Shown here: positions 4,674 through 54,845 of the stretch, piece by piece
Position numbering within the stretch: the first letter of the stretch is position 1
How the letters are laid out: the number at the start of each line of letters is the position of its first letter
NCBI GenBank assembly: GCA_041661765.1
Contig: JBAZTV010000001.1
Location: forward strand, 231,983-295,982
Length of the DNA: 64,000 nt
Direction: 5' to 3'
Source: Candidatus Shapirobacteria bacterium
GTDB lineage: Bacteria; Patescibacteriota; Microgenomatia; UBA12405
The notes under the pieces: generated by a model
Databases searched by the model: none
Told to the model about the DNA's origin: nothing
What the model saw: only the letters and a program-made list of their open reading frames with translations
Program-made: the position numbers and the translations under genes

Positions 4674-4745
4674 TCGCCCTTAGCTCAACGGTAGAGCAAT
4701 CCGCTGTTAACGGAAAGGTTTTTGGTTCGAATCCAGAAGGGCGAG
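4674..4745 (+). tRNA. tRNA-Asn (anticodon GTT)
   Basis: Hand-folded cloverleaf: 7-bp acceptor TCGCCCT/AGGGCGA, D arm GCTC-AACGGTA-GAGC, anticodon loop CTGTTAA, T arm TTTGG-TTCGAAT-CCAGA, discriminator G. No CCA is encoded. Confidence 0.75.
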
Positions 4746-4784
4746 CGTAATATCACACATATATTTCACATGTATAATTAGATT

Positions 4785-5285
4785 ATGAATTATGACCCAA
4801 TCAATTTTTCTAAAAATTTAGTCAAAGGAAGAATCGCTGAAACATTATTTGAACAGATGCTTCGTGATGCTGAATGTTTTACAATTTTATCTTTTGGTTA
4901 TGAAAACATTATTCCAGAACTTGCTCATCGCCAAGATGATATAAGAGCACAAGAAACAATGGAAATAATCAGACGAGCTCCTGATTTTGCTGTAATAAAT
5001 AATGAGACACATGATGTTTATTTAATAGAAGTTAAATATTTAATGAAACCTGCTGCTAGTACAATTCTTAAAGATGCAGAAAGAATGTTTCAATCTTGGA
5101 AACCATCTTATCTATTTTTAGCAACACCAGAAGGTTTTTATTTTGATAAGGCCAGTGACATTGTTAAAAATAATGGAATTATAAAACCGTTTTATCATCC
5201 ACAAATTTCAAAAGAATTGCAATTAAAATATACTCAACTACTAAATGAGTTTATTGTTCCAACTGAAACGACACCTAAAAACTAA
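4785..5285 (+). CDS. Hypothetical protein with a PD-(D/E)xK nuclease-like signature
   Basis: 'APDFAVINNETHDVYLIEVKY' gives a PD...ExK arrangement, with an upstream acidic residue in 'RIAETLFEQ'. Confidence 0.4.
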   Translation: MNYDPINFSKNLVKGRIAETLFEQMLRDAECFTILSFGYENIIPELAHRQDDIRAQETMEIIRRAPDFAVINNETHDVYLIEVKYLMKPAASTILKDAERMFQSWKPSYLFLATPEGFYFDKASDIVKNNGIIKPFYHPQISKELQLKYTQLLNEFIVPTETTPKN

Positions 5286-5520
5286 TATTGTGATTAGTCA
5301 AAAACTCAAAACAATTTCAAAAAGTGAAGAAGAAACAAGAGAATATTTTAAGCGAAAATATAATTGGGATATAGCAGAGGCTGATTATCAAGAAGTTTCT
5401 CAGTCCATGTATTACTTAGGTAAAGCGATTTATAGAAGTTTACAATTAGAGTACAAAAGTGACTCAGTCAATATTAAAAATAAGAAAATCATTAGGCAAG
5501 ATAGCAGAAAATTTGTCTGA
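5245..5520 (+). CDS. Hypothetical small protein. The start is uncertain; it overlaps its neighbours.
   Basis: ORF only. A possible GTG start at 5291 lies after the upstream stop. Confidence 0.25.
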   Translation: MSLLFQLKRHLKTNIVISQKLKTISKSEEETREYFKRKYNWDIAEADYQEVSQSMYYLGKAIYRSLQLEYKSDSVNIKNKKIIRQDSRKFV

Positions 5521-5656
5521 CGATGAAGTTTTAAAATTAGATACCAAAATGGAGATTTTTGCCAATCTTATTTTAGATAAAATATTATCCTTAACGCCGG
5601 AAGAGAGAAAAATACTTAATGATAAAATTAGAAAAGGAAATTCAAGTTATATTTAA
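5459..5656 (+). CDS. Hypothetical small protein
   Basis: ORF only. Overlaps the previous ORF by about 60 nt. Confidence 0.2.
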   Translation: MTQSILKIRKSLGKIAENLSDDEVLKLDTKMEIFANLILDKILSLTPEERKILNDKIRKGNSSYI

Positions 5657-5674
5657 AATTAAATTAAAAATAGA

Positions 5675-6487
5675 ATGACATCAAATAACGATGAATTATC
5701 AAAAACTTTAAGATGGAGAGTAAAATCTCTTAAAATTTTTGTTAAAGCATTCAAACGATATATCGAAGTCGCATCACCTTTTGTTACTGAGGATAATACT
5801 GAGCTGAATAAGGAATATAAAGATATACAAAGATTTCTAAGCTATTTTGAAGAGCAAATAGAAAATGGTGATGGTGATTATGATTTTGTTGATTTAATAT
5901 TTTTAGGTAAAAGTTGGGGTAAAATTTATGATCTGATGTGGAAATATAATGGTTGGAAAAAACAACTATTTGATGAAAGAGAAAGAATAATCGTTATTAA
6001 AGCAGCTCTGGAAGGTGACAAAAAACATCTTGAAGAAATAAATGAAATACTAAATAATGATTGTTGGTCATTATTTAACAGATGTCCAATTTTAATTGAT
6101 AGTTTTTATAATGTTATTCATCCGAAGACAGATGATCCAATTATTCAACAAGTCTTTAATATTGAAACTTTAAATGGTGTGCTTGCTGGTACAAATAATG
6201 GAATAATTACTCAAAACAATGAAAGTAAAAAAGTATTAAAAGCTATACAAGAAATAACAAATATTCTTGAAAAAGAATATCTTGAAAATAAAAATACACC
6301 GGAGATACTTTCAAATTTACAAGAGATTCAAGGTGAATTACTTAAACCATTTCCTGATAATTTAAAAATGAAAAAAGCTGCTGATGGACTACAGACGGTT
6401 GCAAATATTACTCAGATTGGTTCATTCGCGGTTGCAATCGCACCCCATTTGCAGACAATACAACAATTTATCAGTAAATTTATTTAA
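5675..6487 (+). CDS. Hypothetical protein (270 aa), island cargo
   Basis: Long ORF with no recognisable motif. Its stop overlaps the stop of the convergent recombinase gene. Confidence 0.45.
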   Translation: MTSNNDELSKTLRWRVKSLKIFVKAFKRYIEVASPFVTEDNTELNKEYKDIQRFLSYFEEQIENGDGDYDFVDLIFLGKSWGKIYDLMWKYNGWKKQLFDERERIIVIKAALEGDKKHLEEINEILNNDCWSLFNRCPILIDSFYNVIHPKTDDPIIQQVFNIETLNGVLAGTNNGIITQNNESKKVLKAIQEITNILEKEYLENKNTPEILSNLQEIQGELLKPFPDNLKMKKAADGLQTVANITQIGSFAVAIAPHLQTIQQFISKFI

Positions 6488-8205
6488 TAAATCCCGCATA
6501 CAGCTATTCTTATTTGTTCCAAAGCAGGGAGCATAGACAATTTTTTATCGCACAAACCATCATATTTATTGGTATCTTCCATTAAATCTTTAGGTTCGAA
6601 CACCACATATTTCTTATCATCAGAGTTTTTAAATTCAACAATGTACTGAAGTGGTTTTGTAAGGTTGATTCCAATGATTTTGTCTTTCAATGTTAGGTTC
6701 GAAGATAAAGAAAGCAATATTTGTTTTCTCGTCTCTAAGTCACCATTTTTAAACCAATATTTGGCATAACAAGCAAAGTTAAAAGTTCGTTCTGATAATT
6801 CAACCCATTGATTGACTCGATCACCAGTTTGATTCATCTTTTCTTCCAATTCTTTTTTCTCTTTCATTAATGTTTCTTTTTGACTCTTAAATTCATCGTC
6901 AGACAATAATTCATTGTCGGTGTTTTGTGGCGATATTTTTAATTTAACTAGGTTATCGATTCTATTAACAACTTTTTTATAGTCTTCTTGGAAAGAATCA
7001 ATTGAGGCATTACGGCTGACTTTTTCTAAATCATAAAGTCTGTTTAATCTTTTGATCGCCCAATTTTTAAATCTCTCTGAAATTTGAATTTTTCCCAAAT
7101 ATTCTTCAACTTGTTCCATTAATTTTTCTTCAGTGACACACCCTTGAGTACAGTGAGGGTTTTTACTTTTAGCACAGTGGTAGTAAGTGTAGTGAAGTAA
7201 TTTTGGATTAACCATATTTTCAATCAAAGTTTCACATTTTGGACAAGCTTTTTTATTCATTGAGGCAAATTTCTGTTTACAAACAGGGCAGATTATTTGA
7301 AACTTTTCTTCAGCAGTAATGGCACCGCCACATTCATTGCATTTAATTAACCCAGATGCAAAAAATTCTCTTGTGTGTGGTCGAGGACTACAACCTTTTC
7401 CGAGCAATATTTGTACTCTATCAAAGTCTTGTCGTGTAATCATCGGTTCATGTTTACCTTTATAAATTTTTCCAGCATATTCAAACTCTCCAAAATAAAA
7501 AGTATCTTCAAAGATTTTATAAATTGTTGATCGTGGCATTGGCTTACCACCATATCGTCCATTTTCAGGAGATCGATATCCCATTTCAGTATTAATATAT
7601 CTTTGAATCTTTGGTGGTGACCATGCACCAGTCAGCATTAACTCCCAAGCCTTTTTTATGATTTGGAATCGAATTGGATCAGACTGAATTTTTTTATTTC
7701 CTTTACTAGAATAGCGATCATTCATATAGCCTGGTTTTGCCCCACTTGGTAACCACCCCATTTCAGCCTTAGTTTTTAATCCACGTTTTACATTTCTTGA
7801 GAGGTCGAGAATAAATTGATTTGCCATACCTCCCTCTACATAAAGCATCAAATTATCGATCGTAGTATATGATTTTTGAGGAGTGACAATAACTACTTCT
7901 TTATCATTTACTGCCCATGTTATTGCACCCATATCGATTGGGTTACGATATAGACGATCTAACTTCCAACAAACAATTCCATTAATTTCTCCAGTTTGTA
8001 CTCTAGCCATCATTTTGGCAAATATTGGTCGCCCTGGTGCTTTTGCGGATTTTGATTCAGTGTAAATGTCTTCTTTCTCAACCTTAATGCCACTTCTTTT
8101 TGCCAATTCTTTAAGTTCATTTAATTGGCTATCAATAGAAAGCACCTGTTTATCTTCAGTGTCAGTCGATTTTCTAGCATAAATGACATATTTCATATTT
8201 TCCAT
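6484..8205 (-). CDS. Large serine recombinase (integrase)
   Basis: N-terminal resolvase catalytic domain 'YVIYARKSTDTEDKQVLSIDSQ'. 573 aa, with a recombinase domain and Cys-rich zinc-ribbon region (CNECGG...CPVC...CPKC). Confidence 0.85.
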   Translation of the reverse strand: MENMKYVIYARKSTDTEDKQVLSIDSQLNELKELAKRSGIKVEKEDIYTESKSAKAPGRPIFAKMMARVQTGEINGIVCWKLDRLYRNPIDMGAITWAVNDKEVVIVTPQKSYTTIDNLMLYVEGGMANQFILDLSRNVKRGLKTKAEMGWLPSGAKPGYMNDRYSSKGNKKIQSDPIRFQIIKKAWELMLTGAWSPPKIQRYINTEMGYRSPENGRYGGKPMPRSTIYKIFEDTFYFGEFEYAGKIYKGKHEPMITRQDFDRVQILLGKGCSPRPHTREFFASGLIKCNECGGAITAEEKFQIICPVCKQKFASMNKKACPKCETLIENMVNPKLLHYTYYHCAKSKNPHCTQGCVTEEKLMEQVEEYLGKIQISERFKNWAIKRLNRLYDLEKVSRNASIDSFQEDYKKVVNRIDNLVKLKISPQNTDNELLSDDEFKSQKETLMKEKKELEEKMNQTGDRVNQWVELSERTFNFACYAKYWFKNGDLETRKQILLSLSSNLTLKDKIIGINLTKPLQYIVEFKNSDDKKYVVFEPKDLMEDTNKYDGLCDKKLSMLPALEQIRIAVCGIY

Positions 8206-8270
8206 AATTGTATATTTATCCTATCTTTAGCCTAAATATATTATATCGGATACCCAAATATAATCCAAGG

Positions 8271-8786
8271 TTAAAAAGGTACCTCCTCATCAGAAAAACT
8301 ACTATTATCATTAGTTTTGTTAGATTCCTTTAAATTACTATTAATATCAACATTAGAAGAACTATTAGAAAAACTATTTTGGGTTTGTTTACTTGCACCA
8401 TTAGAATTATTGTTTTCGCCATTAAAATTCCATCTATCTACTTCAGAAAAATCAATCCAATCATCGTCAGCATTTTTAACAGAAACAACTTTTATTTCGT
8501 AAAAACTTTCTTCTTTTTTTAAAATTAACTCTTTTTTTAATAATTTATTCATTACTCTTGAAACTTTCGTTATTGACCATCGGGTCATTCTAGAAAGGTC
8601 AGCAAGAGTAACCTCTACATGTTTATAATTTTTATGTCTTTTATCCCAGTCATAAAGTGCATTTAATAAATCCCATAATCTATATTCAGAATCATCTAAC
8701 TTAAATTTAAGTGCAGTCAAATGTCTGTCTCTCCTCAAAAATTGGAACCCCTTTTCTAGTCGATAAGCCTTACTACTTGTCTTCAT
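8271..8786 (-). CDS. Hypothetical protein. The N-terminal ~100 aa may be a winged-helix DNA-binding domain; the C-terminal tail is Asn/Ser-rich low complexity.
   Basis: ORF only. Composition and predicted helices. Confidence 0.4.
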   Translation of the reverse strand: MKTSSKAYRLEKGFQFLRRDRHLTALKFKLDDSEYRLWDLLNALYDWDKRHKNYKHVEVTLADLSRMTRWSITKVSRVMNKLLKKELILKKEESFYEIKVVSVKNADDDWIDFSEVDRWNFNGENNNSNGASKQTQNSFSNSSSNVDINSNLKESNKTNDNSSFSDEEVPF

Positions 8787-9810: not shown

Positions 9811-11463
9811 ATGAGCAATAAGATTTATATAAAGCAAGTTAATATTGAAAACTTTAAATGTTTTAAAGGTAATTTTAATTTACCTTTAAATGAAGGCCTT
9901 AATATTATTGTCGGCGACAATGAGGCAGGTAAATCTACAATTTTAGAAGCAATTCATTTGGCATTAACAGGATTATTAAATGGAAGATATTTAAAAAACG
10001 AATTAACACAGTATCTGTTTAACCACGAAGTAGTCGATGAATATATTAAAAAAGCAAATACGGGAGATAACCCACCACTGCCATATATTTTAATCGAAGT
10101 TATTATTGCAGGCGAGGATTTATCAAAATTTGAAGGAGATAACAATTTTGAAGGGAAAAAAGAGTGTGGTATTTCTTTCAAGATTGGATTTGATGATAAA
10201 TATAAACCAGAGTATGAAGAATTTATTAAAAATGGAGACATTAAAACTATTCCTATTGAATATTATGATATTTTTTGGACTTCCTGTGCTCGTGATAATA
10301 TCACCGCAAGGAGCATACCAATTAAGTCTGCACTAATAGATTCTTCAAGTAATCATTATGAAAACGGCTCTGATATTTATATTTCAAGAATTATTAAAGA
10401 TAATTTAGAAGAAAAAGATAAAGTAAATATATCTCAAGCATACAGAAGAATGGTGGATAGCTTTATGTGTGATAATTCCGTAAAAGAAATTAGTAAAAAA
10501 ATTAAAACTGATGCAAATATTTCCACAAAAAGAGTTGAATTGTCGGTTGGTTTGTCGTCAAAAAACAGTTGGGAAAGTAGTTTAATGACTTACTTTGATG
10601 ACATACCATTTCACTACATTGGGAAAGGGGAGCAATGTATCGTAAAGACAAAATTAGCTCTAAGTCATAAAAAATCACAAGAAGCAAATATTCTTCTTCT
10701 TGAAGAACCAGAAAATCATCTTTCACATACAAAACTTAATCAATTAATTAATGAAATCAAGGAAAGTAATAGTGAAAAACAAATAATAGTTTCCACTCAT
10801 AGTAGTTTTGTGGCAAATAAATTAGGATTAGGAAATTTAATTCTATTAAATAATAAAAAAACAGTAAGATTAAATAATTTAAATGATGATACTAAAATTT
10901 TTTTTGAAAAACTCTCAGGATATGACACACTTCGTCTTATACTTTGTCAAAAGGCTATTTTAGTGGAAGGAGATTCTGATGAATTAATAATTCAAAAAGC
11001 ATTTTTAATTCAAAATGGTATGTTACCAATTGAATGCAACAAAGGAATAGATGTTATCTCTGTCGGAACAACATTTTTGAGATTTTTAGAAATTGCAAAA
11101 GAAATTGATAAATCAGTAGTAGTGGTGACAGATAATGATGGAAAACCAGATGGTGTAAAAAATAAATATACAGATTATCTCGGTGAAAATGCCAAAGATT
11201 CTATCAAAATTTGTTTCGATGAGGATGTTGATACTGGAGTATTGGAGATTGATGGAAAAGCTTTTAATTACAACACCCTTGAACCAAAAATGTTAAAAGC
11301 TAACAGCTTAGATTCTCTTAATAAAATTTTTGGAACAAATTACCAAAATACTGATGATTTACACAAATATATGCATGCGAAAAAAACTGAATGTGCTCTG
11401 AAAATATTTGAAACCAAAGAAATTGTAAAATTTCCAAAATATATTCAAGACGCAATAGCATAG
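9811..11463 (+). CDS. gajA: OLD-family ATP-dependent nuclease: N-terminal ABC-type ATPase plus C-terminal Toprim. GajA-like.
   Basis: Walker A 'GDNEAGKST' with the leading 'IENFKCF' strand typical of AAA_21/OLD proteins. C-terminal Toprim 'ILVEGDSDELIIQKAF' and 'VVVTDNDGKPD'. Confidence 0.7.
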   Translation: MSNKIYIKQVNIENFKCFKGNFNLPLNEGLNIIVGDNEAGKSTILEAIHLALTGLLNGRYLKNELTQYLFNHEVVDEYIKKANTGDNPPLPYILIEVIIAGEDLSKFEGDNNFEGKKECGISFKIGFDDKYKPEYEEFIKNGDIKTIPIEYYDIFWTSCARDNITARSIPIKSALIDSSSNHYENGSDIYISRIIKDNLEEKDKVNISQAYRRMVDSFMCDNSVKEISKKIKTDANISTKRVELSVGLSSKNSWESSLMTYFDDIPFHYIGKGEQCIVKTKLALSHKKSQEANILLLEEPENHLSHTKLNQLINEIKESNSEKQIIVSTHSSFVANKLGLGNLILLNNKKTVRLNNLNDDTKIFFEKLSGYDTLRLILCQKAILVEGDSDELIIQKAFLIQNGMLPIECNKGIDVISVGTTFLRFLEIAKEIDKSVVVVTDNDGKPDGVKNKYTDYLGENAKDSIKICFDEDVDTGVLEIDGKAFNYNTLEPKMLKANSLDSLNKIFGTNYQNTDDLHKYMHAKKTECALKIFETKEIVKFPKYIQDAIA

Positions 11464-11465
11464 AT

Positions 11466-12656
11466 ATGCACGGTAATAATAAATTAATTATTGCTGTTGC
11501 CGGCTCTGGTAAAACAACCTTTCTTATAAATGAAGCACTTAAGAAGAAAGATGGCCACATACTTATAACTACTTATACAATTGCAAATTGTGAAGAAATA
11601 AGAAAAAAAATTATTAAAAAAAGTGGTTATATTCCTCAAAATATAGAAATACAAACTTGGTTTTCACTTCTAATTCAACATGGAGTAAAGCCATTCCAGT
11701 CACATTTTGATAAAGGATTATCAGACTTTAAAATAAAAGGACTACTTTTAACTAATACAAAATCTGCAGTTAAATATACGAACTCAAAAGGGATACCAGT
11801 CTGTTATGAAGAATCTGAAATAAAAAAACATTTTTTTACACCAAACAATAGAATCTATTCTGATAAACTCGCAAAGTTTGTTGTCGGTGGTGGAGATAGA
11901 TTTAGAAAAACAAAAGAAAGAAAATTTTTTGTCGATCTTATGATTAATCGGCTATCAAAAATTTATTCAGATATTTATATTGATGAAGTTCAAGATCTGG
12001 CTGGGTATGATTTGATTTTTTTACAATACCTTTTTAAAAGTTCAATCAATGTTTTGATGGTTTGTGACCCAAGGCAAGTAACATATTTAACTCATCATGA
12101 AACAAAGTTTAAACAATATAAAGATGGAAAAATTAAAGAATTTATCAAAACTGATAACAAAAAATATTTTAAGGATGAAGATATTGACGAAACTTCCCTA
12201 AGGGTTTCACATAGAAATAATAATGCTATCTGTAAATTGTCTTCAAAATTATTTCCAGAATACGTTTATTCTGAACCTTGTACTTGTTTTGAATGTAGAA
12301 AATCTGACAGTGAAGATCACATTGGAGTTTTTATAGTCAAAAAATGTGATGTCAAAAAATATCTTTCCACTTATAATCCAATGCAGTTAAGAGACAAAAA
12401 AACAGTATTGGTTAATGAAAAATTTGATGTTGCAAATTTTGGCGAATCCAAAGGATTAACTTTTAATAGAGTTCTTATTTATCCAACAAAAGAATTTATC
12501 AAATGGTTAAAAGACGATAAGTATAAGTTAGCCCCAACAAGTAGATCGAAATTCTACGTCGCCATAACAAGAGCAATTTACAGTGTCGGAATTATTTGTG
12601 ATGAAAAAATAGAGATTGCAGATGTGAATGAATTTATAAATACATTACCAAATTAA
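11466..12656 (+). CDS. gajB: UvrD-like helicase, GajB-like
   Basis: Motif I 'AVAGSGKTT', motif II 'IDEVQDLAG', C-terminal 'FYVAITRA' (motif VI-like). It sits 2 nt after the OLD-family gene. Confidence 0.7.
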   Translation: MHGNNKLIIAVAGSGKTTFLINEALKKKDGHILITTYTIANCEEIRKKIIKKSGYIPQNIEIQTWFSLLIQHGVKPFQSHFDKGLSDFKIKGLLLTNTKSAVKYTNSKGIPVCYEESEIKKHFFTPNNRIYSDKLAKFVVGGGDRFRKTKERKFFVDLMINRLSKIYSDIYIDEVQDLAGYDLIFLQYLFKSSINVLMVCDPRQVTYLTHHETKFKQYKDGKIKEFIKTDNKKYFKDEDIDETSLRVSHRNNNAICKLSSKLFPEYVYSEPCTCFECRKSDSEDHIGVFIVKKCDVKKYLSTYNPMQLRDKKTVLVNEKFDVANFGESKGLTFNRVLIYPTKEFIKWLKDDKYKLAPTSRSKFYVAITRAIYSVGIICDEKIEIADVNEFINTLPN

Positions 12657-12665
12657 TAGTTCTTT

Positions 12666-12890
12666 CTATAATCTAAATAACTCCGAAACATCAACTTTCA
12701 ATTTTTTAGCAATCTTTAAGAGTACTTCCATTGATGGATTTATTCTTCCTTGTTCAATGTGGCCGATATGAGTTCTACTTAAACCCAAAGCTTCAGCAAA
12801 TTCTTCCTGACTCTTGTAGCCAATTTGTTTTCTTAGTTTTTGAATAGTCTTTCCCAACCTTTTAGTAACCTTTCTCTTTGTTATAACCAT
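12666..12890 (-). CDS. XRE-family helix-turn-helix transcriptional regulator
   Basis: 74 aa. 'LRKQIGYKSQEEFAEALGLSRTHIGHIEQGRINPS' is a Cro/C1-type HTH. Confidence 0.75.
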   Translation of the reverse strand: MVITKRKVTKRLGKTIQKLRKQIGYKSQEEFAEALGLSRTHIGHIEQGRINPSMEVLLKIAKKLKVDVSELFRL

Positions 12891-13007
12891 GCTTGGATTA
12901 TGTCTAGCTATGAGGAGAAACTCTACTAGCTTAAAGCGAGCAATTAGGTATAAATAATGTATAATCTCGTTTAGAAGTCCTATTACAAATTTTTTAATAT
13001 AAACAAT

Positions 13008-13286
13008 ATGACCAACCCTTATTGGGACAAGATTAAAAAAACTGTGTCAGAGATTGATAATCTTGTTAATAACAATTCAAAGAAAGACATCCAATTTAAG
13101 AAACCAACAAAAATATTTTTTGGCAAAAAATGTCTCAAGTGTAATAGTCGTAATGTCAAAACTATAAAAGCTGGATTTATGAAACATCTAATGCAACAAA
13201 ATGTTGCCATTTGGGTACCAGGAGCCAAAATATCAAAACCTTTAAATGTTTGCCGTGATTGTGGTTTCTCTTGGGAAGACCGTTAA
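13008..13286 (+). CDS. Small zinc-ribbon protein (CxxC...CxxC)
   Basis: 'CLKCNSRN' and 'CRDCGF' Cys pairs. Confidence 0.4.
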   Translation: MTNPYWDKIKKTVSEIDNLVNNNSKKDIQFKKPTKIFFGKKCLKCNSRNVKTIKAGFMKHLMQQNVAIWVPGAKISKPLNVCRDCGFSWEDR

Positions 13287-13287
13287 T

Positions 13288-13305
13288 TGTCTCGTAGCCG
13301 AGACA
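13288..13305 (+). terminator. Hairpin TGTCTCG-TAGC-CGAGACA immediately after the stop of the zinc-ribbon gene
   Basis: Perfect 7-bp stem with a 4-nt loop. There is no strong T tract, so terminator function is uncertain. Confidence 0.3.
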
Positions 13306-13535
13306 GATGAAATAGTAAGTACCAATTTATATACTATTGTATAGGACTATATAATATATAATGGAAACATAGGTAATAACTCTCAGGAAGTCGTTTGAAA
13401 AATAAAGCAGACTCAATTATAGATTTAACTATTAAAACTTATTCTACGAGGCTACATGAAGCCACAATAGTGTTCTTAATTAAATACCAAGAATAGTTTT
13501 GTTGATTATCATTAGTTTCACTTGGAAAGATAAAC

Positions 13536-13559
13536 ATTTGTCACGCAGGCGTGACAAAT
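13536..13559. promoter_or_regulatory. Perfect 11-bp inverted repeat ATTTGTCACGC-AG-GCGTGACAAAT, 25 nt upstream of the methyltransferase start
   Basis: Read directly from the sequence. Its position suggests an operator or transcript-end structure for the restriction-modification module. Confidence 0.4.
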
Positions 13560-13583
13560 TAAAAACATGTTCAACTTGGGTCC

Positions 13584-14924
13584 TTGTTTCCCAAACAAAA
13601 CACAAATATAATTAAGAAGATGAATAGTAAATTTACTTTTATAGATCTGTTTGCTGGTATCGGTGGATTTAGAATCGCATTAGAAAGATGTGGTGGTAAA
13701 TGTTTAGGTTTTTCTGAAATAGAACCCAAAGCTATTGAGACCTATAAAGAAAATTTCATAAAAAAGAATGACAATGAGTGGGAACTTGGCGATATACAAA
13801 AAATAAATAAATTACCTACACCAGTTGATGTAATTGTCGGTGGTGTGCCGTGTCAGTCTTGGTCTGTCGCTGGGAAAATGAGAGGATTTGAAGACCCACG
13901 CGGTAAATTATGGCACGATGCTATAAGATTAGTGAAATTAAACAGACCAAAAGTTTTTGTATTTGAAAATGTCAAAGGATTAGCCGATCCAAGAAATAAA
14001 GAGAATTTAAATCTTATAGTTAATAGTTTTAAAGAATTAGGTTATACCATACCAACTCCTCAACTTTTAAATTCATATGATTTTGGTCTTCCACAAAATA
14101 GAGAAAGAATATTTATTGTTGGTTTTAACAATGATGTCATTTCTGATTTAAATTTTTCTTATCCCAAAAAACGTAATATTGAATTTAGATTATCAGATTT
14201 TCTAGATGGTCTTGAACAAAAAACCGTTATAAAGAAAAAAATAAATCCAAAAGAATTATTTGACGGTAAAATACCTCTATCAAGAAATAAATTTCAAGTA
14301 AATGATGAATTAAATGATTTTTTTGTCTTTTGTGACGCTAGGAATGGTCACAGTACTATTCACTCTTGGGACCTTATTCCAACTAGTAATAGAGAAAAAG
14401 AAATTTGTTATGCCATAATGAGAAATCGTAGAAAAAAAGTTTATGGGGAAAAAGATGGTAACCCATTAGGATTTAAGGATATTGATGACCTAGTTTCTAA
14501 CCTTAAAAAAGAAGAATTAGAAGGGTTAGTTCTTAAAAGAATACTTAGAAAAGTAGAAGGTGGAAAATTTGACTTGGTAAACTCAAAAAATTCTTCTGGT
14601 ATTAATGGAATCTATCGGGTATTTTTACCAAATTCAAAAATATTTTCTACTATCACTGCCACTGGAACTCGTGATCATGTCGCTACTGTCACAATAAGTG
14701 GTCGCACCCCAGAAGAATATCGACGAAATTTCATTAAAAAAGTGTATGAAAAAGGGAATTTTAGACAAATTACTCCAAGAGAGGCCGGATTATTACAGGG
14801 GTTTGGACATAATTTTAAACTTAACAGACAAGATAGAATCTCCCTTAAACAATTTGGTAATGCTGTTTCAGTAAATGTTGTCTATGCTCTAATGGAATCT
14901 ATAATTAAGACTGGTATTTTTTGA
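13584..14924 (+). CDS. DNA (cytosine-5)-methyltransferase
   Basis: Motif I 'FIDLFAGIGGF', motif IV 'GGVPCQSWS', motif VI 'ENVKGL'. Confidence 0.9.
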   Translation: MFPKQNTNIIKKMNSKFTFIDLFAGIGGFRIALERCGGKCLGFSEIEPKAIETYKENFIKKNDNEWELGDIQKINKLPTPVDVIVGGVPCQSWSVAGKMRGFEDPRGKLWHDAIRLVKLNRPKVFVFENVKGLADPRNKENLNLIVNSFKELGYTIPTPQLLNSYDFGLPQNRERIFIVGFNNDVISDLNFSYPKKRNIEFRLSDFLDGLEQKTVIKKKINPKELFDGKIPLSRNKFQVNDELNDFFVFCDARNGHSTIHSWDLIPTSNREKEICYAIMRNRRKKVYGEKDGNPLGFKDIDDLVSNLKKEELEGLVLKRILRKVEGGKFDLVNSKNSSGINGIYRVFLPNSKIFSTITATGTRDHVATVTISGRTPEEYRRNFIKKVYEKGNFRQITPREAGLLQGFGHNFKLNRQDRISLKQFGNAVSVNVVYALMESIIKTGIF

Positions 14925-14946
14925 ATAAATAAGCCATAATCAGGAT

Positions 14947-15669
14947 GTGATAAGCGAAAAACAAAAAAGTGAATTTTTATTGCGTTTAGGTAAATGGGTA
15001 ACCGATGATTTTGCCAAAAAATATGAGAATAATATTAGAAAATGTTCAAAATTATCAGAGTTTAAGGTTAATCCGCTACTTTTACCATTTCTTTCTCTCA
15101 CTTTTACTGGGAATGTTGATCCAGAAAGTTTAGCCAAAGTCCTAGTTTACCCACGAGTACTCAGCACTTCAATTACCACTACATTTGGAACAGGATTACA
15201 GAGATTTATAACTGATGCTTGGAATGAAATCTGTGGAGGATCTGGTTTATCTGGAATCGATATAGAATTTACAGATCAGATTGAAGGTGGTAAAAAATAT
15301 GCTCAAATTAAACTTGGGCCAAATACCATTAATAAAGATGATGTGAAGACTATTACTGATCATTTTAAGGGTGCACTTAATTTAAGTAGGACAAATAATC
15401 TTAAAATTAAACACGAAGACTTAGTTGTTGGTGTTGTTTATGGTAAAGAATCGGAGAAGAACGCCAACCTTAAAAAATTAGATACAGAATACACAGTCTT
15501 AATAGGTCAAGATTTTTGGTATCACTTAACTGGTGACAAGGATTTTTATAATGAAATGAAGAAAACAATATTTACCTCGTCAGAAAAAATATGTCTAAAA
15601 GATGATATTGAAAAAGCTATTAAAGAACTATCAAAATCTATTAACAAAGACAGAATTTTATCAGCTTAA
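14947..15669 (+). CDS. Candidate cognate restriction endonuclease (uncharacterised 240-aa protein directly downstream of the methyltransferase)
   Basis: Position only. A possible D...ExK arrangement in 'GIDIEF...YAQIKLG'. The start codon is uncertain (GTG). Confidence 0.35.
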   Translation: MISEKQKSEFLLRLGKWVTDDFAKKYENNIRKCSKLSEFKVNPLLLPFLSLTFTGNVDPESLAKVLVYPRVLSTSITTTFGTGLQRFITDAWNEICGGSGLSGIDIEFTDQIEGGKKYAQIKLGPNTINKDDVKTITDHFKGALNLSRTNNLKIKHEDLVVGVVYGKESEKNANLKKLDTEYTVLIGQDFWYHLTGDKDFYNEMKKTIFTSSEKICLKDDIEKAIKELSKSINKDRILSA

Positions 15670-15673
15670 TTTA

Positions 15674-15750
15674 GTGTCACGACACAATATTTTATTTTTT
15701 TATTTTTATTAATTGTCTCAGCGTCGAGACAATTTTCACGCCAGCGTGAA
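15674..15750. repeat. Cluster of three GC hairpins: GTGTC-AC-GACAC followed by a T-rich run, TTGTCTC-AGCGTC-GAGACAA, and TTCACGC-CA-GCGTGAA
   Basis: Stems read from the sequence. Similar in style to the hairpins at 13288 and 13536. Located in a ~390-bp non-coding gap at the distal end of the island. Confidence 0.4.
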
Positions 15751-16059
15751 GAATAGACTATTAAAGTTTTCAAGGTTTTTCCCATTTCCAAAGAAGTGAC
15801 TACGATACAAAGTGGCGAATCAAAAAACAGAATTTCCGAACAGGGGGTGTTTCAAAGTTTTCGGCTTTGCAATAAACAGACTAACAGTATTCAAGTTTAA
15901 CCATAGATTTATAAACATATTATTACTATCTATAACAAACTAATACATATCTAAAAATTAGCTACAAATTAGCAATTAATTCCAGTCATGTTAAACGTTG
16001 GTAATGGTTCATAGTGAGTCATATTGTAGGTTCGGATATCGTCTATTACGCAGAGCACA

Positions 16060-16461
16060 ATGAATTTTACAGAATGGTTTTCTATACTATCAATAATTGT
16101 TGGAATTATACTCTTTGGTTGGGATATTTATTTACTTGGTGAATCAAAAAAACAGAAGGCAGTTTTTGACAAAGAAAAAGAAATTCATAAATCTCAAGTA
16201 AAAATATGGCAACATTATGCAAATGGACTCAGCAATTCTCTATTAAATTTAGGATTTTCTGCAGAAAGAGAACAAAATTCAAAATTAGAACAGGCGATTA
16301 AATCATTACAGACAGTATCATTTTATCTTTATAAATCATTAAATGAAGAAAGATTATTTTCCGAAGAAGAAATAAAAAAACAACAACTAGAAACAGAAAG
16401 TCAGTATAAACAATTTTTTAATAAACCTAAAGTAAGTACAGAAATTCCACTAGACAAGTAA
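16060..16461 (+). CDS. Hypothetical membrane-anchored protein
   Basis: Hydrophobic N-terminal segment, then a charged coiled-coil-like region. Confidence 0.35.
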   Translation: MNFTEWFSILSIIVGIILFGWDIYLLGESKKQKAVFDKEKEIHKSQVKIWQHYANGLSNSLLNLGFSAEREQNSKLEQAIKSLQTVSFYLYKSLNEERLFSEEEIKKQQLETESQYKQFFNKPKVSTEIPLDK

Positions 16462-16514
16462 GATTTTTCTTCACATTTGGTCTAAGACGACTAGTATTTT
16501 GGTATAATCAAAGT

Positions 16515-16820
16515 ATGTCCAAGAATCCTATTATTAACGCCTTCAGCGCTTCAGTGTATATCATCCTCGTTGTCACTATTATGACCTTTGTGACAAAACC
16601 TTTACAAAATAAACCCGACACCTTTTTCGCTCCAATCACATTTTTATCACTGCTTACTCTTTCTGTCGTTGTAATGGCATTTCTATTTTTTTACCAACCA
16701 CTGCAGCTTTTTATTGAAGGAAAGAAAAAAGAAGCGGTAAACCTTTTTGTCAAAACTGTTGGTATATTCGCAGCATTTACGGCTGTGATTTTGATACTGC
16801 TTTTTTCTGGTCTAATCTAG
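16515..16820 (+). CDS. Hypothetical small membrane protein
   Basis: Three predicted transmembrane segments. Confidence 0.35.
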   Translation: MSKNPIINAFSASVYIILVVTIMTFVTKPLQNKPDTFFAPITFLSLLTLSVVVMAFLFFYQPLQLFIEGKKKEAVNLFVKTVGIFAAFTAVILILLFSGLI

Positions 16821-16836
16821 ATTAGGGTAATAAAAA

Positions 16837-17286
16837 TTATTTACCTAACCTTTCCAATATTTGTTTCATTTGACCAATCTCTGATTGCTGAGAGGGAATA
16901 ATTTTTTGACACAATTGTTTAATTTCAGGATCATCAAAAGATGCGTTCTTACACATTAATATTGCTCCAGAATGATGAGGAATCATAGATTTTAAAAATT
17001 GCTTATTATCTATTGCAGTCTGTTTTCTAATAAAAATAAAAAATAATATAAATATAGAAATACCGACACACATTAAAACATTTTTAGTTAAGTTTTTATA
17101 CATAACACCCATAAATAAAATTTCCAAGATCAACATCGGAGCAGTCATAATTCCGGCCATATATAATTGATTTAAATTGGGGTATATATCAACAAATTTA
17201 TAAACCATAACATACATTAGTATGTACATAGCCAAAAAATGGAGAAATACCATCAGTGATAAACCGACAAAAGAAGTATGTTTCAT
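16837..17286 (-). CDS. DUF305-like membrane protein (metal-resistance-associated family)
   Basis: 'MIPHHSGAILMC' resembles the DUF305 MxxHHxxAIxM motif. N-terminal transmembrane segments. Confidence 0.45.
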   Translation of the reverse strand: MKHTSFVGLSLMVFLHFLAMYILMYVMVYKFVDIYPNLNQLYMAGIMTAPMLILEILFMGVMYKNLTKNVLMCVGISIFILFFIFIRKQTAIDNKQFLKSMIPHHSGAILMCKNASFDDPEIKQLCQKIIPSQQSEIGQMKQILERLGK

Positions 17287-34130: not shown

Positions 34131-34383
34131 ATCAGTTCTTTTAAAATGGCGTTATAAACAAGAGCGTGTGGTCCGCCCACTGACGGAATACGAGGAAAAG
34201 GGTCAATCGATTTATCTGCGGAAACCCTTAGGTTGTGATTGTCAGCCTTAATATTTTCTTTAAACCTTTGAAGTAATTCAAAAATTAAAGGGAAAATAGA
34301 ACAATTGCCATTTCCACAAAAGAATACATTTGCCGGATTTTTAGGTATTTTTATTTGTTTAAAAATCTTGCATATATAAAAAC

Positions 34384-50303: not shown

Positions 50304-50340
50304 AAAAATTTTTTACCAAAACAAAAATTTTAAATTTCCA

Positions 50341-50370
50341 TGTAGAGACGTAGCGCGCTACGTCTCTACA
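50341..50370. repeat. Perfect 30-bp palindrome TGTAGAGACGTAGCGCGCTACGTCTCTACA (REP-like), copy A, intergenic
   Basis: Self-complementary as read. Located 56 bp upstream of the RAYT-like gene. Confidence 0.8.
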
Positions 50371-50425
50371 TAACAACAAAAAAACGTTCCTACAAATATA
50401 AATTTATATTTCTATTATTTAAATA

Positions 50426-51019
50426 ATGGTCGATAATCCAACTAAGTTTGCCGATAAATTTAAATTAAAATCTTCTCGTCTCCAAAACTGGAACTATTCA
50501 ACTCCAGGATATTACTTCATCACCATCTGTACCCACAACCACAATAATTTTTTTGGAAAAATTATTAACAACAAGATGGAATTGTCAAAACGTGGTGAAA
50601 TTACTAAATCTGAATTATTAAAAACATTTGAAATCAGAAAAAATATTAAATTACATGAATGGGTAATTATGCCAAATCATGTGCATGTTTTAATGGAAAT
50701 TGAAAAACAAAATTATCAACACAATAAATGTAGAGACGTAGCGCGCTACGTCTCTACAAAACTAAACAACATCTCTACAGAAGAAAATAATAAAAATTTT
50801 TCAAAAATTTCACCCAAACCAAATTCAATTTCATCAATAATACGTTCATTCAAATCAGCCGTTACCCATCAAATAAATCCCAAAACAATATTTTTTGCTT
50901 GGCAACCCCGTTTCCACGATCAAATCATTAAAGATGAAAAAAAATTATTAATGATCAAAAATTATATAATCAATAATCCTATTAATTGGCAAAAAGATAA
51001 ATTTTATAATTTAAAATAA
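50426..51019 (+). CDS. REP-associated tyrosine transposase (RAYT; IS200/TnpA-like HuH) with an in-frame insertion
   Basis: 'GYYFITICTHNHNNFF', HuH 'MPNHVHVLM', C-terminal 'WQPRFHDQII...IKNYIINNPINW' (YafM-like). About 40 extra residues lie between the HuH and Tyr regions and include the palindrome-encoded 'CRDVARYVST'. Confidence 0.7.
   Translation: MVDNPTKFADKFKLKSSRLQNWNYSTPGYYFITICTHNHNNFFGKIINNKMELSKRGEITKSELLKTFEIRKNIKLHEWVIMPNHVHVLMEIEKQNYQHNKCRDVARYVSTKLNNISTEENNKNFSKISPKPNSISSIIRSFKSAVTHQINPKTIFFAWQPRFHDQIIKDEKKLLMIKNYIINNPINWQKDKFYNLK
50729..50758. repeat. Perfect 30-bp palindrome, copy B, identical to 50341-50370 and located inside the RAYT reading frame
   Basis: Identical 30-mer, 388 bp downstream of copy A. 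Confidence 0.8.
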
Positions 51020-54794: not shown

Positions 54795-54834
54795 CCTCCC
54801 TGTCAAGGGAGGTGCCCGAAGGGCGGAGGGTTTT
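54795..54834 (+). repeat. Copy 2 of the two-hairpin repeat: CCTCCC-TGTCAA-GGGAGG, TGCCC-GAA-GGGC, GGAGGGTTTT
   Basis: 40-mer identical to 56283-56322. Confidence 0.7.
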
Positions 54835-54845
54835 AAAACCAAAAA

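What the first reader, a model, noticed from the sequence alone, without database searches (positions are those of the whole stretch)
12666..16059. m5C restriction-modification module with regulator and zinc-ribbon genes, bracketed by a family of GC hairpins in an AT-rich background
A canonical cytosine-5 methyltransferase (motifs I, IV, VI) is followed 22 nt later by a 240-aa protein with a possible D...ExK catalytic arrangement, likely its restriction partner. Upstream are an XRE regulator and a CxxC...CxxC protein, a possible controller. The module is bracketed by unusually GC-rich perfect hairpins: TGTCTCG/CGAGACA at 13288, ATTTGTCACGC/GCGTGACAAAT at 13536, and three more at 15674-15750. 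Two of these share the 'TTGTCTC' arm and two others share a 'TCACGC..GCGTGA' core. They may be operators, terminators or recombination sites that delimit the module as a mobile cassette.
Basis: partly seen in the sequence, partly recalled or inferred. Interest (0 to 1): 0.5.

Follow-up and report, generated by a model that had tools for sequence, protein, structure and literature searches.

The report
Restriction-modification cargo in a mobile element
This is an ordinary two-gene restriction-modification system carried as swappable cargo near the end of a small integrative mobile element in a Candidatus Shapirobacteria genome, and the neighbouring regulator gene, zinc-ribbon gene and most of the GC-rich hairpins belong to the element's backbone, not to the restriction system.

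Summary
All genes and hairpins are at the stated coordinates. The hairpins form one palindrome family, TTNTCWC-N6-GWGANAA, found nowhere else in the 64 kb window.

- The 240-aa protein is a real type II restriction endonuclease of the PmeII/EcoO109I family (PF14511, E=1e-29). It lies 22 nt after an intact cytosine-5 methyltransferase.
- The operon has its own promoter, TTGGGTCCTTGTT-N17-TATAAT. This promoter is conserved in five unrelated contexts and carries GGTCC, the likely recognition site.
- The XRE regulator and the zinc-ribbon gene are not R-M controllers. They are a conserved divergent gene pair in the backbone of a serine-recombinase mobile element.
- Related elements carry the same pair with no R-M, or with DUF2726, Abi or other cargo. 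The same R-M operon occurs elsewhere without the pair.
- Hairpins of this family, at the positions of H1, H4 and H5, are present in a sister element that lacks the R-M. They are therefore backbone features of a long conserved non-coding tail.
- H2 is unique to this copy, and H3 is weak.

The hairpins' function is unresolved. My best guess is plus-strand RNA stem-loops at transcript boundaries. The main rival is binding sites for a protein encoded by the element. Interest is low to moderate.

The parts
12666..12890 (-). 74-aa XRE/Cro-C1 type HTH regulator. It is a backbone gene of the mobile element, not an R-M C protein.
   Evidence: PF01381, E=5.5e-16. PADLOC 'Control_protein' models hit at 3e-13, but so do generic HTH models. 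It is always divergent from the zinc-ribbon gene in related elements, whatever the cargo.
12891..13007 (.). Divergent XRE/zinc-ribbon promoter region. It holds conserved CTAGCT repeats and a TATAAT box, and no member of the hairpin family.
   Evidence: Compared with L008. No TTNTCWC-N6-GWGANAA site here.
13008..13286 (+). 92-aa zinc-ribbon protein with no family assignment. Conserved core: KKCPKCDS...KPLNVCRDCGFSWEDR.
   Evidence: 18 homologues. C42, C45, C82 and C85 are invariant. No Pfam, PHROG or PADLOC family.
13285..13308 (+). H1, a stem-loop starting 1 nt after the zinc-ribbon stop codon: TTGTCTCG TAGC CGAGACAG. A hairpin is kept at this position in the sister elements L007 and L015.
   Evidence: -10.4 kcal/mol, z=-3.75. 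The same alignment columns hold different stems in L007 and L015, with pairing kept through changes on both sides.
13307..13482 (+). Left conserved non-coding block, promoter-like, with TATAAT boxes and a leader of about 120 nt. It is part of the element backbone.
   Evidence: The blastn match that spans the zinc-ribbon gene and this block is 84.6% identical to L007. Substitutions show no 3-nt periodicity, 10/9/14. No Rfam match.
13536..13559 (.). H2, a perfect 11-2-11 palindrome, ATTTGTCACGC AG GCGTGACAAAT. It lies in the junction unique to this copy (13483-13569), about 10 nt before the R-M cassette homology begins.
   Evidence: -11.9 kcal/mol, z=-4.9. Absent from the equivalent junctions in L028, L002, L029 and L046.
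13573..13619 (+). The R-M operon's own promoter. GGTCC at 13579-13583 abuts a -35-like TTGTTT (13584-13589). TATAAT lies at 13607-13612, 7 nt before the ATG, so the mRNA is leaderless or has a very short leader.
   Evidence: TT[G/A]GGTCCTTGTT-N16/17-TATAAT is conserved in the window, L028, L002, L029 and L046, although the spacers have diverged.
13620..14924 (+). 434-aa DNA cytosine-5 methyltransferase.
   Evidence: PF00145, 2.6e-81. TIGR00675, 9.9e-77. PADLOC MTase_II, 6.6e-136. M.HhaI and M.HaeIII structures hit at 1e-47 and 1e-35. Full length compared with homologues.
14947..15669 (+). 240-aa type II restriction endonuclease of the PmeII/MjaII/EcoO109I family.
   Evidence: PF14511, E=1.1e-29. 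393 homologues, named 'PmeII family type II restriction endonuclease' or 'MjaII' by their sources. A family profile hits EcoO109I structure 1WTD at E=2.9e-7. D105, E107, Q120 and K122 are invariant.
15674..15685 (+). H3, a weak hairpin. Its CACGACA core marks the right border of the cargo slot in all four related elements.
   Evidence: -2.6 kcal/mol, z=-1.8. GTCACGACA or GACACGACA follows the cargo, or the empty slot, in the window, L007, L015, L028 and L005.
15686..15710 (.). AT-only run between H3 and H4.
   Evidence: Sequence.
15711..15734 (+). H4, a palindrome: AATTGTCTC AGCGTC GAGACAATT.
   Evidence: A homologous hairpin lies in the L007 tail, on the other side of the H5 homologue.
15733..15752 (+). 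H5, a palindrome: TTTTCACGC CA GCGTGAAGA.
   Evidence: Near-identical copies occur in L007 (right side of the tail) and in L015 and L028 (directly after the zinc-ribbon gene).
15763..16056 (+). Right conserved non-coding block, with a CTACGATAC...GGGGG motif and the 24-nt core AAACGTTGGTAATGGTTCATAGTG (15993-16016) of a conserved block of about 45 nt. Homology to the sister elements ends at about 16056, the likely right end of the mobile element.
   Evidence: 75% identical to L007, and also matched in L015, L028 and L005. The flanking genes differ after this point: GreA in L007, a membrane ORF here.

Best explanation
The locus is a self-contained type II restriction-modification operon, with the methyltransferase first and the endonuclease 22 nt behind. 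It sits in a cargo slot in the non-coding tail of an integrative mobile element of about 10-11 kb in a Candidatus Shapirobacteria (CPR) genome.

The element. Its backbone runs: large serine recombinase, lambda-O-like initiator, a 242-aa protein, cargo slot 1 (here Gabija), a divergent XRE/zinc-ribbon pair, hairpin(s), a conserved promoter-like non-coding block, cargo slot 2 (here the R-M), a CACGACA motif, and a conserved non-coding block that reaches the element's right end.

The R-M system. The endonuclease belongs to the PmeII (GGWCC), MjaII (GGNCC) and EcoO109I (RGGNCCY) family. The system therefore most likely methylates and cuts a GGWCC or GGNCC-type site. This is inferred. It is transcribed from its own conserved promoter. 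That promoter carries GGTCC directly against the -35 element, which suggests self-regulation by methylation or methyltransferase binding rather than by a C protein. This is also inferred.

The XRE and zinc-ribbon genes. They are the element's own regulatory pair.

The hairpins. They are members of one 20-bp palindrome family that lives only in the element's tail. Members at the positions of H1, H4 and H5 are found whether or not an R-M is present. H2 is a copy-specific extra at the left junction. Most likely they act on the plus-strand transcript as stem-loops that end, insulate or stabilise the zinc-ribbon and cargo transcripts. This last step is the weakest inference.
For: R-M identity.

Specificity lead:
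- PmeII recognises GGWCC (PMC8112702).
- A 64%-identical methyltransferase homologue is paired with an RE_Eco47II-family enzyme.

Own promoter, conserved in five contexts.

Cargo status:
- L007 has the XRE gene, zinc-ribbon gene, left block, hairpins and right block, but no R-M. It matches window 13004-13482 and 15763-16056.
- L015 has DUF2726 in the same slot.
- L028 has the R-M in the same slot on an L015-like backbone.

Backbone and mobility:
- Large serine recombinase at 6484-8205, with Resolvase, Recombinase and zinc-ribbon domains, and PHROG integrase at 3e-64.
- O-like initiator at 8271-8786, and tRNA-Asn at 4674-4746.
- Related elements L018, L024 and L028 share the same gene order.

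Hairpins are tail-specific: among 292 kb of window plus fetched loci, the family occurs only in the tails of the window, L007, L015 and L028, apart from three AT-rich chance-like sites.

Structure rather than sequence is conserved after the zinc-ribbon stop.
- 85% of cells are paired across 11 family members, and 5 of 11 pairs change on both sides.
- In the eight core pairs, the four cells that depart on one side only are all U.G on the plus strand. None is the C.A that a minus-strand wobble would give. A few core cells are unpaired in other ways (A.A, U.U).

No hairpins flank cargo slot 1, which argues against a general role as cassette recombination sites.
Against: - Most of the hairpins lack the U-tract of a canonical intrinsic terminator. 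Their arms run 5'-TTT...AAA-3', the reverse of the bidirectional terminators seen elsewhere in this window (33218, 41603).
- The TTTCACGCC[A/T]GCGTGAAA hairpin is nearly invariant in sequence, including its loop, while the surrounding non-coding DNA has diverged by 15-30%. It also sits at different positions in different elements. That pattern fits sequence-specific protein recognition better than a plain RNA stem.
- The plus-strand wobble bias rests on only four cells.
- Recognition specificity and enzyme activity are untested.
- GGNCC is only mildly under-represented in the window: 30 observed against 38-46 expected.
- The exact left end of the element was not defined.
Confidence: 0.6

Rival explanations
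1. The palindromes are duplex DNA binding sites for a dimeric protein encoded by the element. Candidates are iteron-like sites for the lambda-O-like initiator next to the AT-only run (an origin of replication of the excised element), operators for the XRE protein, or accessory sites for the serine recombinase.
For: - All members share one geometry, TCWC-N6-GWGA inside AATT-rich arms.
- The TTTCACGCCWGCGTGAAA member is almost invariant while its flanks diverge.
- H3, H4 and H5 flank a 25-nt AT-only run.
- The element encodes an O-like initiator (phrog_678, 4.7e-7). L018 encodes a Phage_CRI-like Rep.
- The 11-2-11 and 7-2-7 layout around a central dinucleotide resembles serine-recombinase crossover sites. 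This resemblance comes from my own knowledge, not from a test.
Against: - No family member lies in the XRE/zinc-ribbon promoter region, where an autoregulating XRE protein would be expected to bind.
- The central dinucleotides differ (AG, CA, CT, CG), so the sites are not a matched recombination pair.
- At the position after the zinc-ribbon stop, L015 keeps a stem but loses the TCWC motif.
- The single-sided departures from pairing in the core are all plus-strand U.G.
- Copy number and placement vary from 1 to 4 between sister elements.
Confidence: 0.27
2. The XRE protein, with or without the zinc-ribbon protein, is the controller (C protein) of this R-M system, and the hairpins are its operators.
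For: - The XRE protein matches PADLOC 'Control_protein' models at E=3.4e-13.
- H2 lies about 70 nt upstream of the methyltransferase start.
- C proteins belong to the Xre family (PMC2632904).
Against: - C genes normally sit upstream of the endonuclease gene and are co-transcribed with it. Their boxes lie just upstream of the C gene (PMC2632904). Here the XRE gene points the opposite way, two genes away, and has no such box.
- The XRE/zinc-ribbon pair occurs without any R-M in seven or more loci. The R-M occurs without the pair in at least two (L029, L046).
- H2 is missing from L028, which has both the pair and the R-M.
- The generic HTH models score as well as the C-protein models.
Confidence: 0.04
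3. The hairpins are recombination or transposition ends that move cargo in and out of the slot. This would resemble an integron or dif-module, or the subterminal hairpins used by an HUH/Y1 transposase acting in trans.
For: - Slot 2 clearly turns over: it is empty, or holds DUF2726, or holds the R-M.
- TGTCACG occurs at both junctions, inside H2 and inside H3, and only once more on that strand in the window.
- The genome encodes a Y1_Tnp-like protein at 50426-51019 with its own palindromes.
- The strand-specific wobble pattern would also fit single-stranded DNA hairpins.
Against: - The homology break-points (13482, about 13572, about 15672) do not coincide with H1, H4 or H5.
- Hairpins at the H1, H4 and H5 positions persist in the empty-slot element.
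- L028 and L015 exchange cargo with no hairpins on the right side and no H2.
- Cargo slot 1 has no hairpins.
- There is no integron integrase or Y1 transposase in the element.
- The palindromes of the Y1_Tnp-like gene have different arms.
Confidence: 0.06

Closest known systems
PmeII / MjaII / EcoO109I family type II R-M systems (Pfam PF14511 RE_EcoO109I plus an m5C methyltransferase)
   Same: The endonuclease has the domain at full length. The D/E...xK residues align with EcoO109I. An m5C methyltransferase lies adjacent. The size is about 240 aa. The sites known for this family are GGWCC, GGNCC and RGGNCCY.
   Different: The host is a CPR bacterium. The gene order is methyltransferase then endonuclease, in one operon with no C gene (EcoO109I has C.EcoO109I). 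More distant relatives on viral contigs have convergent genes and an HTH fused to the methyltransferase. The specificity here is unmeasured.
Self-regulation of an R-M promoter through the system's own recognition site (CfrBI-type). This comparison comes from my own knowledge.
   Same: The probable recognition sequence, GGTCC, lies directly against the -35 element of the methyltransferase promoter. It is conserved in five loci.
   Different: There is no experimental link here. The site could simply be part of the promoter.
Phage 'moron' or cargo hotspots in integrative elements that carry defence genes
   Same: A self-contained unit of promoter plus gene(s) is inserted between conserved backbone segments. 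Sister elements hold alternative cargo at the same position. A second slot carries Gabija, Shedu-like or AAA+DUF2130 genes.
   Different: The backbone is a small element of about 10-11 kb with a large serine recombinase, in Shapirobacteria, with no structural phage genes seen. It has an unusually long conserved non-coding tail (about 670 nt when the slot is empty).
REP / BIME extragenic palindromes
   Same: They are a family of short GC-rich palindromes in intergenic DNA just after stop codons. Two sit back-to-back, and they have two stem types.
   Different: They are not dispersed. In the 64 kb window they occur only in this element's tail. They have no GTAG foot. They are not adjacent to the genome's Y1_Tnp-like gene, whose palindromes differ.

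Membership tests
Type II R-M, PmeII/EcoO109I endonuclease family | The endonuclease matches the family model above the curated threshold over its full length. | tested here: met
   PF14511, 104 bits against a cut-off of 22.5, residues 16-210 of 240. 393 homologues at E<=1e-3.
Type II R-M, PmeII/EcoO109I endonuclease family | PD-(D/E)xK-type catalytic residues are conserved and align with a solved family member. | tested here: met
   D105, E107, Q120 and K122 are invariant in 26 sequences. The profile aligns E107 with D110 of EcoO109I, and K122 with K126, in structure 1WTD. That these EcoO109I residues are catalytic is from my own knowledge.
Type II R-M, PmeII/EcoO109I endonuclease family | An adjacent, intact cognate methyltransferase. 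| tested here: met
   A 434-aa m5C methyltransferase lies 22 nt upstream, full length compared with homologues. The methyltransferase-endonuclease pairing is conserved in L002, L028, L029 and L046.
Type II R-M, PmeII/EcoO109I endonuclease family | Demonstrated site-specific methylation and cleavage. | not testable with these tools
   Only family-based inference is possible (GGWCC, GGNCC or RGGNCCY). GGNCC depletion in the window is mild.
C-protein (controller) regulated R-M | The C gene lies upstream of the endonuclease gene, is co-oriented with it and usually overlaps it. | tested here: not met
   The XRE gene is on the opposite strand. It is separated from the endonuclease gene by the zinc-ribbon gene, non-coding DNA and the methyltransferase gene. 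The criterion is taken from PMC2632904.
C-protein (controller) regulated R-M | A C-box operator immediately upstream of the C gene. | tested here: not met
   No family palindrome lies in 12891-13007.
C-protein (controller) regulated R-M | The regulator co-occurs with the R-M in relatives. | tested here: not met
   The pair occurs without R-M in L007-9, L013, L015, L018 and L024. The R-M occurs without the pair in L029 and L046, and in L002 as far as its 292 nt of upstream contig shows.
Canonical intrinsic (Rho-independent) terminator | A GC-rich stem followed directly by a U-tract, at a gene's 3' end. | tested here: inconclusive
   The position fits for H1 and for H3-H5. The consensus scan reports only H2, and on the minus strand. 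H4 is followed by UUUU. H1, H2 on the plus strand and H5 have no U-tract.
REP/RAYT repeats | Many dispersed genomic copies, a GTAG foot, and association with a Y1 transposase. | tested here: not met
   No copies elsewhere in the 64 kb. There is no GTAG foot. The Y1_Tnp-like gene at 50426 has different palindromes. The rest of the genome could not be scanned.
Integron cassette / attC | An IntI integrase, an attI site, and attC sites bounding each cassette. | tested here: not met
   There is no tyrosine integrase in the element. The palindromes are 20-24 bp and do not coincide with the cassette break-points.
Large-serine-recombinase integrative element | A recombinase with Resolvase, Recombinase and zinc-ribbon domains, plus conserved element ends next to differing host flanks. 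| tested here: met
   The recombinase domains are present and PHROG integrase hits at 3.4e-64. The right-end homology stops at 16056, after which the flanks differ in the window, L007 and L015. The left end was not resolved.

The most novel reading that the evidence does not exclude
The long conserved non-coding tail is a dedicated cis-acting platform that recruits and exchanges defence cargo in serine-recombinase elements of CPR bacteria. The platform comprises the promoter-like left block, the CACGACA border motif, the TTNTCWC-N6-GWGANAA palindromes and the CTACGATAC...GGGGG block. On this reading the palindromes are recognition sites for a recombination or replication protein that has not yet been identified. 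It would be a new, integron-like way of swapping defence genes.
Probability: 0.1. Interest if true: 0.6.

Novelty: new member of a known kind. Interest (0 to 1): 0.3.

Why it matters
The R-M system itself is routine. Here, an XRE gene and palindromes next to an R-M operon are not a controller and its operators. They are part of a mobile-element chassis in candidate-phyla-radiation bacteria that carries interchangeable defence cargo in two slots. Slot 1 holds Gabija, a Shedu-like gene or AAA+DUF2130. Slot 2 holds the R-M, DUF2726 or nothing.

Two features give concrete, testable leads in organisms where almost nothing is known experimentally. The first is the promoter-embedded GGTCC, conserved across five contexts, which bears on R-M self-regulation. 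The second is the conserved non-coding tail, which bears on how small CPR mobile elements are organised.

Tried and rejected
- Rfam on 12000-17000 at E<=1 found nothing. Over the whole window, only a glmS ribozyme and tRNA-Asn were found.
- A search for a tRNA-Asn-derived direct repeat at the far end of the island found none.
- A small ORF in the left non-coding block was rejected. A frame stays open in all four elements, but there is no start codon in L007 and no 3-nt periodicity of substitutions.
- A JGI metagenome scan with a right-block pattern gave 0 hits. The genome scan returned only L007 again, plus L015.
- A JGI scan with the 20-nt H5-type hairpin gave 15 hits. All are single copies in unrelated contigs of 43-66% GC, falling into about six loci, which is consistent with chance. 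There is no evidence of a wider repeat family.
- Site avoidance as a clue to specificity was uninformative: GGNCC 30 observed against 38-46 expected.
- Single-sequence phmmer of the endonuclease against PDB found nothing. A family profile was needed.
- NCBIfam gave no endonuclease family hit.
- The apparent inversion of the H4-H5 segment between the window and L007, seen as a minus-strand blastn match, is equally explained by two palindromes being in swapped order.
- A link between H1 (GTCTC-GTAGC-C-GAGAC) and the palindromes of the Y1_Tnp-like gene (GAGAC-GTAGC-GC-GCTAC-GTCTC) was considered. They share short words but not arms, so I treated it as coincidence.

Full report
**1. What is at the coordinates**

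The window has about 31% G+C. It comes from a Candidatus Shapirobacteria MAG. The 240-aa protein is 100% identical to an NCBI protein from that taxon, on a 445-kb contig.

- XRE/HTH_3 protein, 12666-12890 (-), 74 aa, E=5.5e-16.
- CxxC...CxxC protein, 13008-13286 (+), 92 aa, no family.
- Cytosine-5 methyltransferase. The likely start is the ATG at 13620, which places motif I at the N-terminus. It ends at 14924. PF00145, E=2.6e-81.
- 240-aa protein, 14947-15669, starting 22 nt after the methyltransferase stop.

The hairpins are also real. H1 is at 13288-13305, H2 at 13536-13559 (a perfect 11-2-11 palindrome), H4 at 15711-15734 and H5 at 15735-15750. Each folds at about -10 to -12 kcal/mol, with z-scores from -3.7 to -4.9. 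The fifth, H3 at 15674-15685, is marginal at -2.6 kcal/mol and z=-1.8.

The shared arms are far beyond chance: 3 matches against 0.00 expected, and 2 against 0.12 expected.

The four strong hairpins are one family with a single geometry, TTGTCWC-N6-GWGACAA. With up to two mismatches, the only matches in 64 kb are H1, H2 and H4. H5 fits with three mismatches, a level at which chance matches also appear.

The window's other terminator-like hairpins look different. Those at 33218 and 41603 are classic A-tract/stem/T-tract structures. A separate CCTCCCTGTCAAGGGAGG...GGAGGGTTTT element occurs three times.

**2. The R-M system is genuine and ordinary**

- The 240-aa protein matches Pfam RE_EcoO109I at 104 bits, against a cut-off of 22.5.
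- It has 393 homologues. Their sources name them 'PmeII family type II restriction endonuclease' or 'MjaII restriction endonuclease'.
- A profile of 26 family members finds the EcoO109I crystal structure 1WTD at E=2.9e-7. It aligns the invariant E107 and K122 with EcoO109I D110 and K126.
- The methyltransferase is full length and has all the hallmarks of the family.
- PmeII recognises GGWCC, and its methyltransferase makes m5C there (PMC8112702).
- A 64%-identical methyltransferase homologue is paired instead with an RE_Eco47II-family enzyme. From my own knowledge, Pfam lists Eco47II and MjaII as GGNCC enzymes and EcoO109I as RGGNCCY.
- A GGWCC or GGNCC-type site is therefore the best prediction. 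Site depletion in the window is too mild to confirm it.

**3. The operon has its own conserved promoter**

The operon recurs with the same promoter in five different genomic contexts: the window, L028, L002, L029 and L046. The promoter reads TT[G/A]GGTCCTTGTT, then 16-17 nt, then TATAAT, then 6-10 nt, then ATG. The spacer is free to vary, but GGTCC-TTGTT is fixed.

GGTCC fits GGWCC and GGNCC, and here also RGGNCCY. It abuts the -35-like hexamer. The short distance from the -10 box to the ATG implies a leaderless or nearly leaderless mRNA.

I infer that the system senses its own methylation state, or binds its own methyltransferase, at this site, as described for CfrBI-type regulation (from my own knowledge). 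This has not been shown.

More distant family members on viral contigs use a different solution: convergent genes and an HTH fused to the methyltransferase.

**4. The XRE and zinc-ribbon genes are not R-M controllers**

The zinc-ribbon protein has 18 detectable homologues, with four invariant cysteines and a strongly conserved C-terminus. Their gene neighbourhoods settle the question. The divergent pair, XRE (-) and zinc-ribbon (+), recurs with entirely different neighbours:
- A Shedu-like SduA_C gene (L008, L009).
- DUF4145 and a phage integrase (L013).
- Abi_C (L018).
- DUF8370/8371 (L024-L027).
- A PHP/AAA protein, DUF2130 and DUF2726 (L015).

Conversely, the same R-M operon occurs with no XRE/zinc-ribbon pair in L029 and L046, and none is seen in the short upstream stretch of L002.

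By the published criteria for C proteins, the gene lies upstream of and is co-transcribed with the endonuclease gene, and its operators lie just upstream of the C gene (PMC2632904). This XRE protein fails every positional test. Its match to PADLOC 'Control_protein' models reflects the general Xre fold.

**5. The pair belongs to a mobile element backbone**

Related loci share this order:
- A large serine recombinase. In the window it lies at 6484-8205 (-), with Resolvase, Recombinase and zinc-ribbon domains, and PHROG integrase at 3e-64.
- A replication-initiator-like protein. In the window it lies at 8271-8786 and is lambda-O-like at 4.7e-7. In L018 it is Phage_CRI-like.
- A protein of 235-282 aa.
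- The XRE and zinc-ribbon pair.

The window element lies beside tRNA-Asn (4674-4746).

Between the 242-aa gene and the XRE gene lies cargo slot 1. In the window it holds Gabija (GajA 8.7e-221, GajB 4.9e-127). In L028 and L015 it holds an AAA protein plus DUF2130. In L008 it holds a Shedu-like gene. In L018 and L024 it is empty.

**6. The R-M sits in a second cargo slot, and most hairpins are backbone**

L007 is the same as L008 and L009. It comes from another Shapirobacteria MAG and acts as an empty-site comparator. The blastn results are:
- L007 32-510 matches window 13004-13482 at 84.6%.
- L007 694-988 matches window 15763-16056 at 75%.
- Nothing in L007 corresponds to 13483-15712, apart from the hairpins and a CACGACA motif.

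A second pair gives the same picture. L015 and L028 share an 86-89% identical backbone. L015 has a DUF2726 gene where L028 has the R-M. The L028 R-M is 78% identical to the window's at the nucleotide level.

In both pairs the slot opens at the same place in the left block (window about 13482). It closes at the G[T/A]CACGACA motif (window 15674). The R-M cassette proper, defined by homology to L002, L028, L029 and L046, spans about 13570-13576 to about 15672.

The layout of the tail is therefore:
- Zinc-ribbon stop codon.
- Hairpin(s).
- Left conserved block, 13307-13482. It is promoter-like and not coding, because substitutions show no codon periodicity.
- The cargo slot.
- The CACGACA motif.
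- In the window and L007, an AT-rich run and two back-to-back hairpins.
- Right conserved block, 15763-16056.
- The end of homology, with different host genes beyond it.

Palindromes of the family at the positions of H1, H4 and H5 therefore exist without any R-M. H2 lies in 87 nt (13483-13569) that are unique to this copy, and it is absent from the L028 junction. Cargo slot 1 has no hairpins at its borders.

**7. What the hairpins might do**

Across 292 kb of window plus fetched loci, TTNTCWC-N6-GWGANAA with up to one mismatch occurs only in the tails of the four sister elements. The counts are window 4, L007 3, L028 2 and L015 1. Three AT-rich chance-like sites also appear.

For an RNA-level (or single-strand) role on the plus strand:
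- A stem-loop is kept at the same alignment columns right after the zinc-ribbon stop in the window, L007 and L015, with different sequences and pairing preserved.
- Over 11 family members, 85% of cells pair, against 75% in shuffles and 28-47% when the partner is slid.
- Five of 11 pairs show changes on both sides.
- In the eight core pairs, all four cells that depart on one side only are U.G on the plus strand. None is the mirror C.A. The plus strand is the strand of the zinc-ribbon, methyltransferase and endonuclease genes. A few core cells are unpaired in other ways (A.A, U.U).

Against a plain terminator:
- Most hairpins lack a U-tract.
- Their arms run 5'-TTT...AAA-3'.

For sequence-specific recognition:
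- TTTCACGCC[A/T]GCGTGAAA is almost invariant across elements whose flanking non-coding DNA differs by 15-30%.
- It sits on the right of the tail in the window and L007, but directly after the zinc-ribbon gene in L015 and L028.

The evidence does not settle the question. I rank plus-strand transcript-boundary stem-loops first. Binding sites for an element protein come second; an origin next to the AT-only run and the O-like initiator is the most attractive version. The C-box model and the cassette-end model come well behind.

A JGI metagenome scan with the H5-type 20-mer found only unrelated single copies in higher-GC contigs. There is thus no sign of a wider repeat family. The rest of this genome could not be scanned.

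**8. Verdict**

- The R-M reading is correct, and the system is a new member of a well-known family.
- The 'mobile cassette' idea is right in spirit. The operon is swappable cargo. But the hairpins, apart from the copy-specific H2 and the weak H3 border motif, belong to the carrier element and do not delimit the cassette.
- The XRE and zinc-ribbon genes are the element's own regulatory pair.
- The residual interest lies in three things: the conserved promoter-embedded GGTCC, the two-slot defence-cargo architecture of a small serine-recombinase element in a CPR bacterium, and the unexplained conserved non-coding tail with its palindrome family.

Noticed in passing
window 9811-12656: A complete Gabija defence system lies immediately upstream. 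GajA is 550 aa (PADLOC E=8.7e-221; an OLD-type ATPase with a TOPRIM domain). GajB is 396 aa (E=4.9e-127; UvrD-like). It occupies a second variable cargo slot of the same element. Sister elements carry a Shedu-like SduA_C gene or a PHP/AAA protein plus DUF2130 there.
   Followed up: partly
window 4674-8786 and 15763-16056: The whole region looks like an integrative element beside tRNA-Asn (4674-4746). It has a 573-aa large serine recombinase (6484-8205, minus strand) and a lambda-O-like initiator (8271-8786). Homology to sister elements ends at about 16056. The left end is unresolved, and no tRNA-derived direct repeat was found.
   Followed up: partly
L028 1-30 and 11924-11968; window 6488-6532: In the sister element L028 the contig starts with a tRNA 3' end that abuts the recombinase gene. 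The last 45 nt of the recombinase coding sequence (LPALEQIR..CGI*) lie about 12 kb away, at the far right of the element. This suggests that the attachment site lies inside the 3' end of the recombinase gene, and that the window copy is arranged differently.
   Followed up: no
window 15790-15860; L018 6440-6520; L024 6340-6420: A conserved non-coding motif, CTACGATA[C/G], then about 30 nt, then a G-run (GGGGG), followed by a variable small hairpin. It occurs in the right block of the window, L007, L015 and L028. In the more distant elements L018 and L024 it lies directly after the zinc-ribbon gene. In L018, which encodes a Phage_CRI-like Rep, the G-run is followed by CTCTTTAATAGAG. This resembles the f1 origin nick region (from my own knowledge). 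There is no Rfam match.
   Followed up: partly
window 13307-13482: A 176-nt non-coding block is as conserved as the neighbouring zinc-ribbon gene (the match spanning both is 84.6% identical to L007). It has strong TATAAT-like boxes and shows no codon periodicity. It may be the cargo promoter with a long leader, or an unknown RNA.
   Followed up: partly
window 50340-50371, 50729-50758, ORF 50426-51019: A 197-aa Y1_Tnp (IS200-like, RAYT-like) ORF. The 30-bp perfect palindrome TGTAGAGACGTAGC GC GCTACGTCTCTACA occurs inside its coding sequence, just after the HUH motif, and again upstream of the gene, where the arms extend one base further (32 bp). The palindrome has GTAG/CTAC feet. The homologous gene in another Shapirobacteria (L001 4632-5201) also contains an internal GTAGAGACGC...GCGTCTCTAC palindrome.
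   Followed up: partly
window ~1320-1385, 54795-54840, 56283-56330: A repeated structured element follows three genes: CCTC[C/T]CTGTCAAGGGAGG, a small hairpin, then GGAGGGTTTT. It is probably this genome's characteristic terminator or a REP-like repeat.
   Followed up: no
window 34152-34308: A glmS ribozyme (RF00234, 71 bits) lies upstream of the ORF at 34384-36141.
   Followed up: no
L016 and L017 (IMG/VR contigs): More distant PmeII/EcoO109I-family endonucleases on viral contigs are convergent with an m5C methyltransferase that carries an N-terminal XRE-type HTH. This is a different regulatory solution within the same family.
   Followed up: no
one search hit list: Many close homologues of the methyltransferase (about 60% identity) are fused to a Vsr very-short-patch repair endonuclease domain (PF03852), sometimes also with PF18741 or PF04480. 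The window copy has no such fusion and no vsr gene nearby.
   Followed up: no
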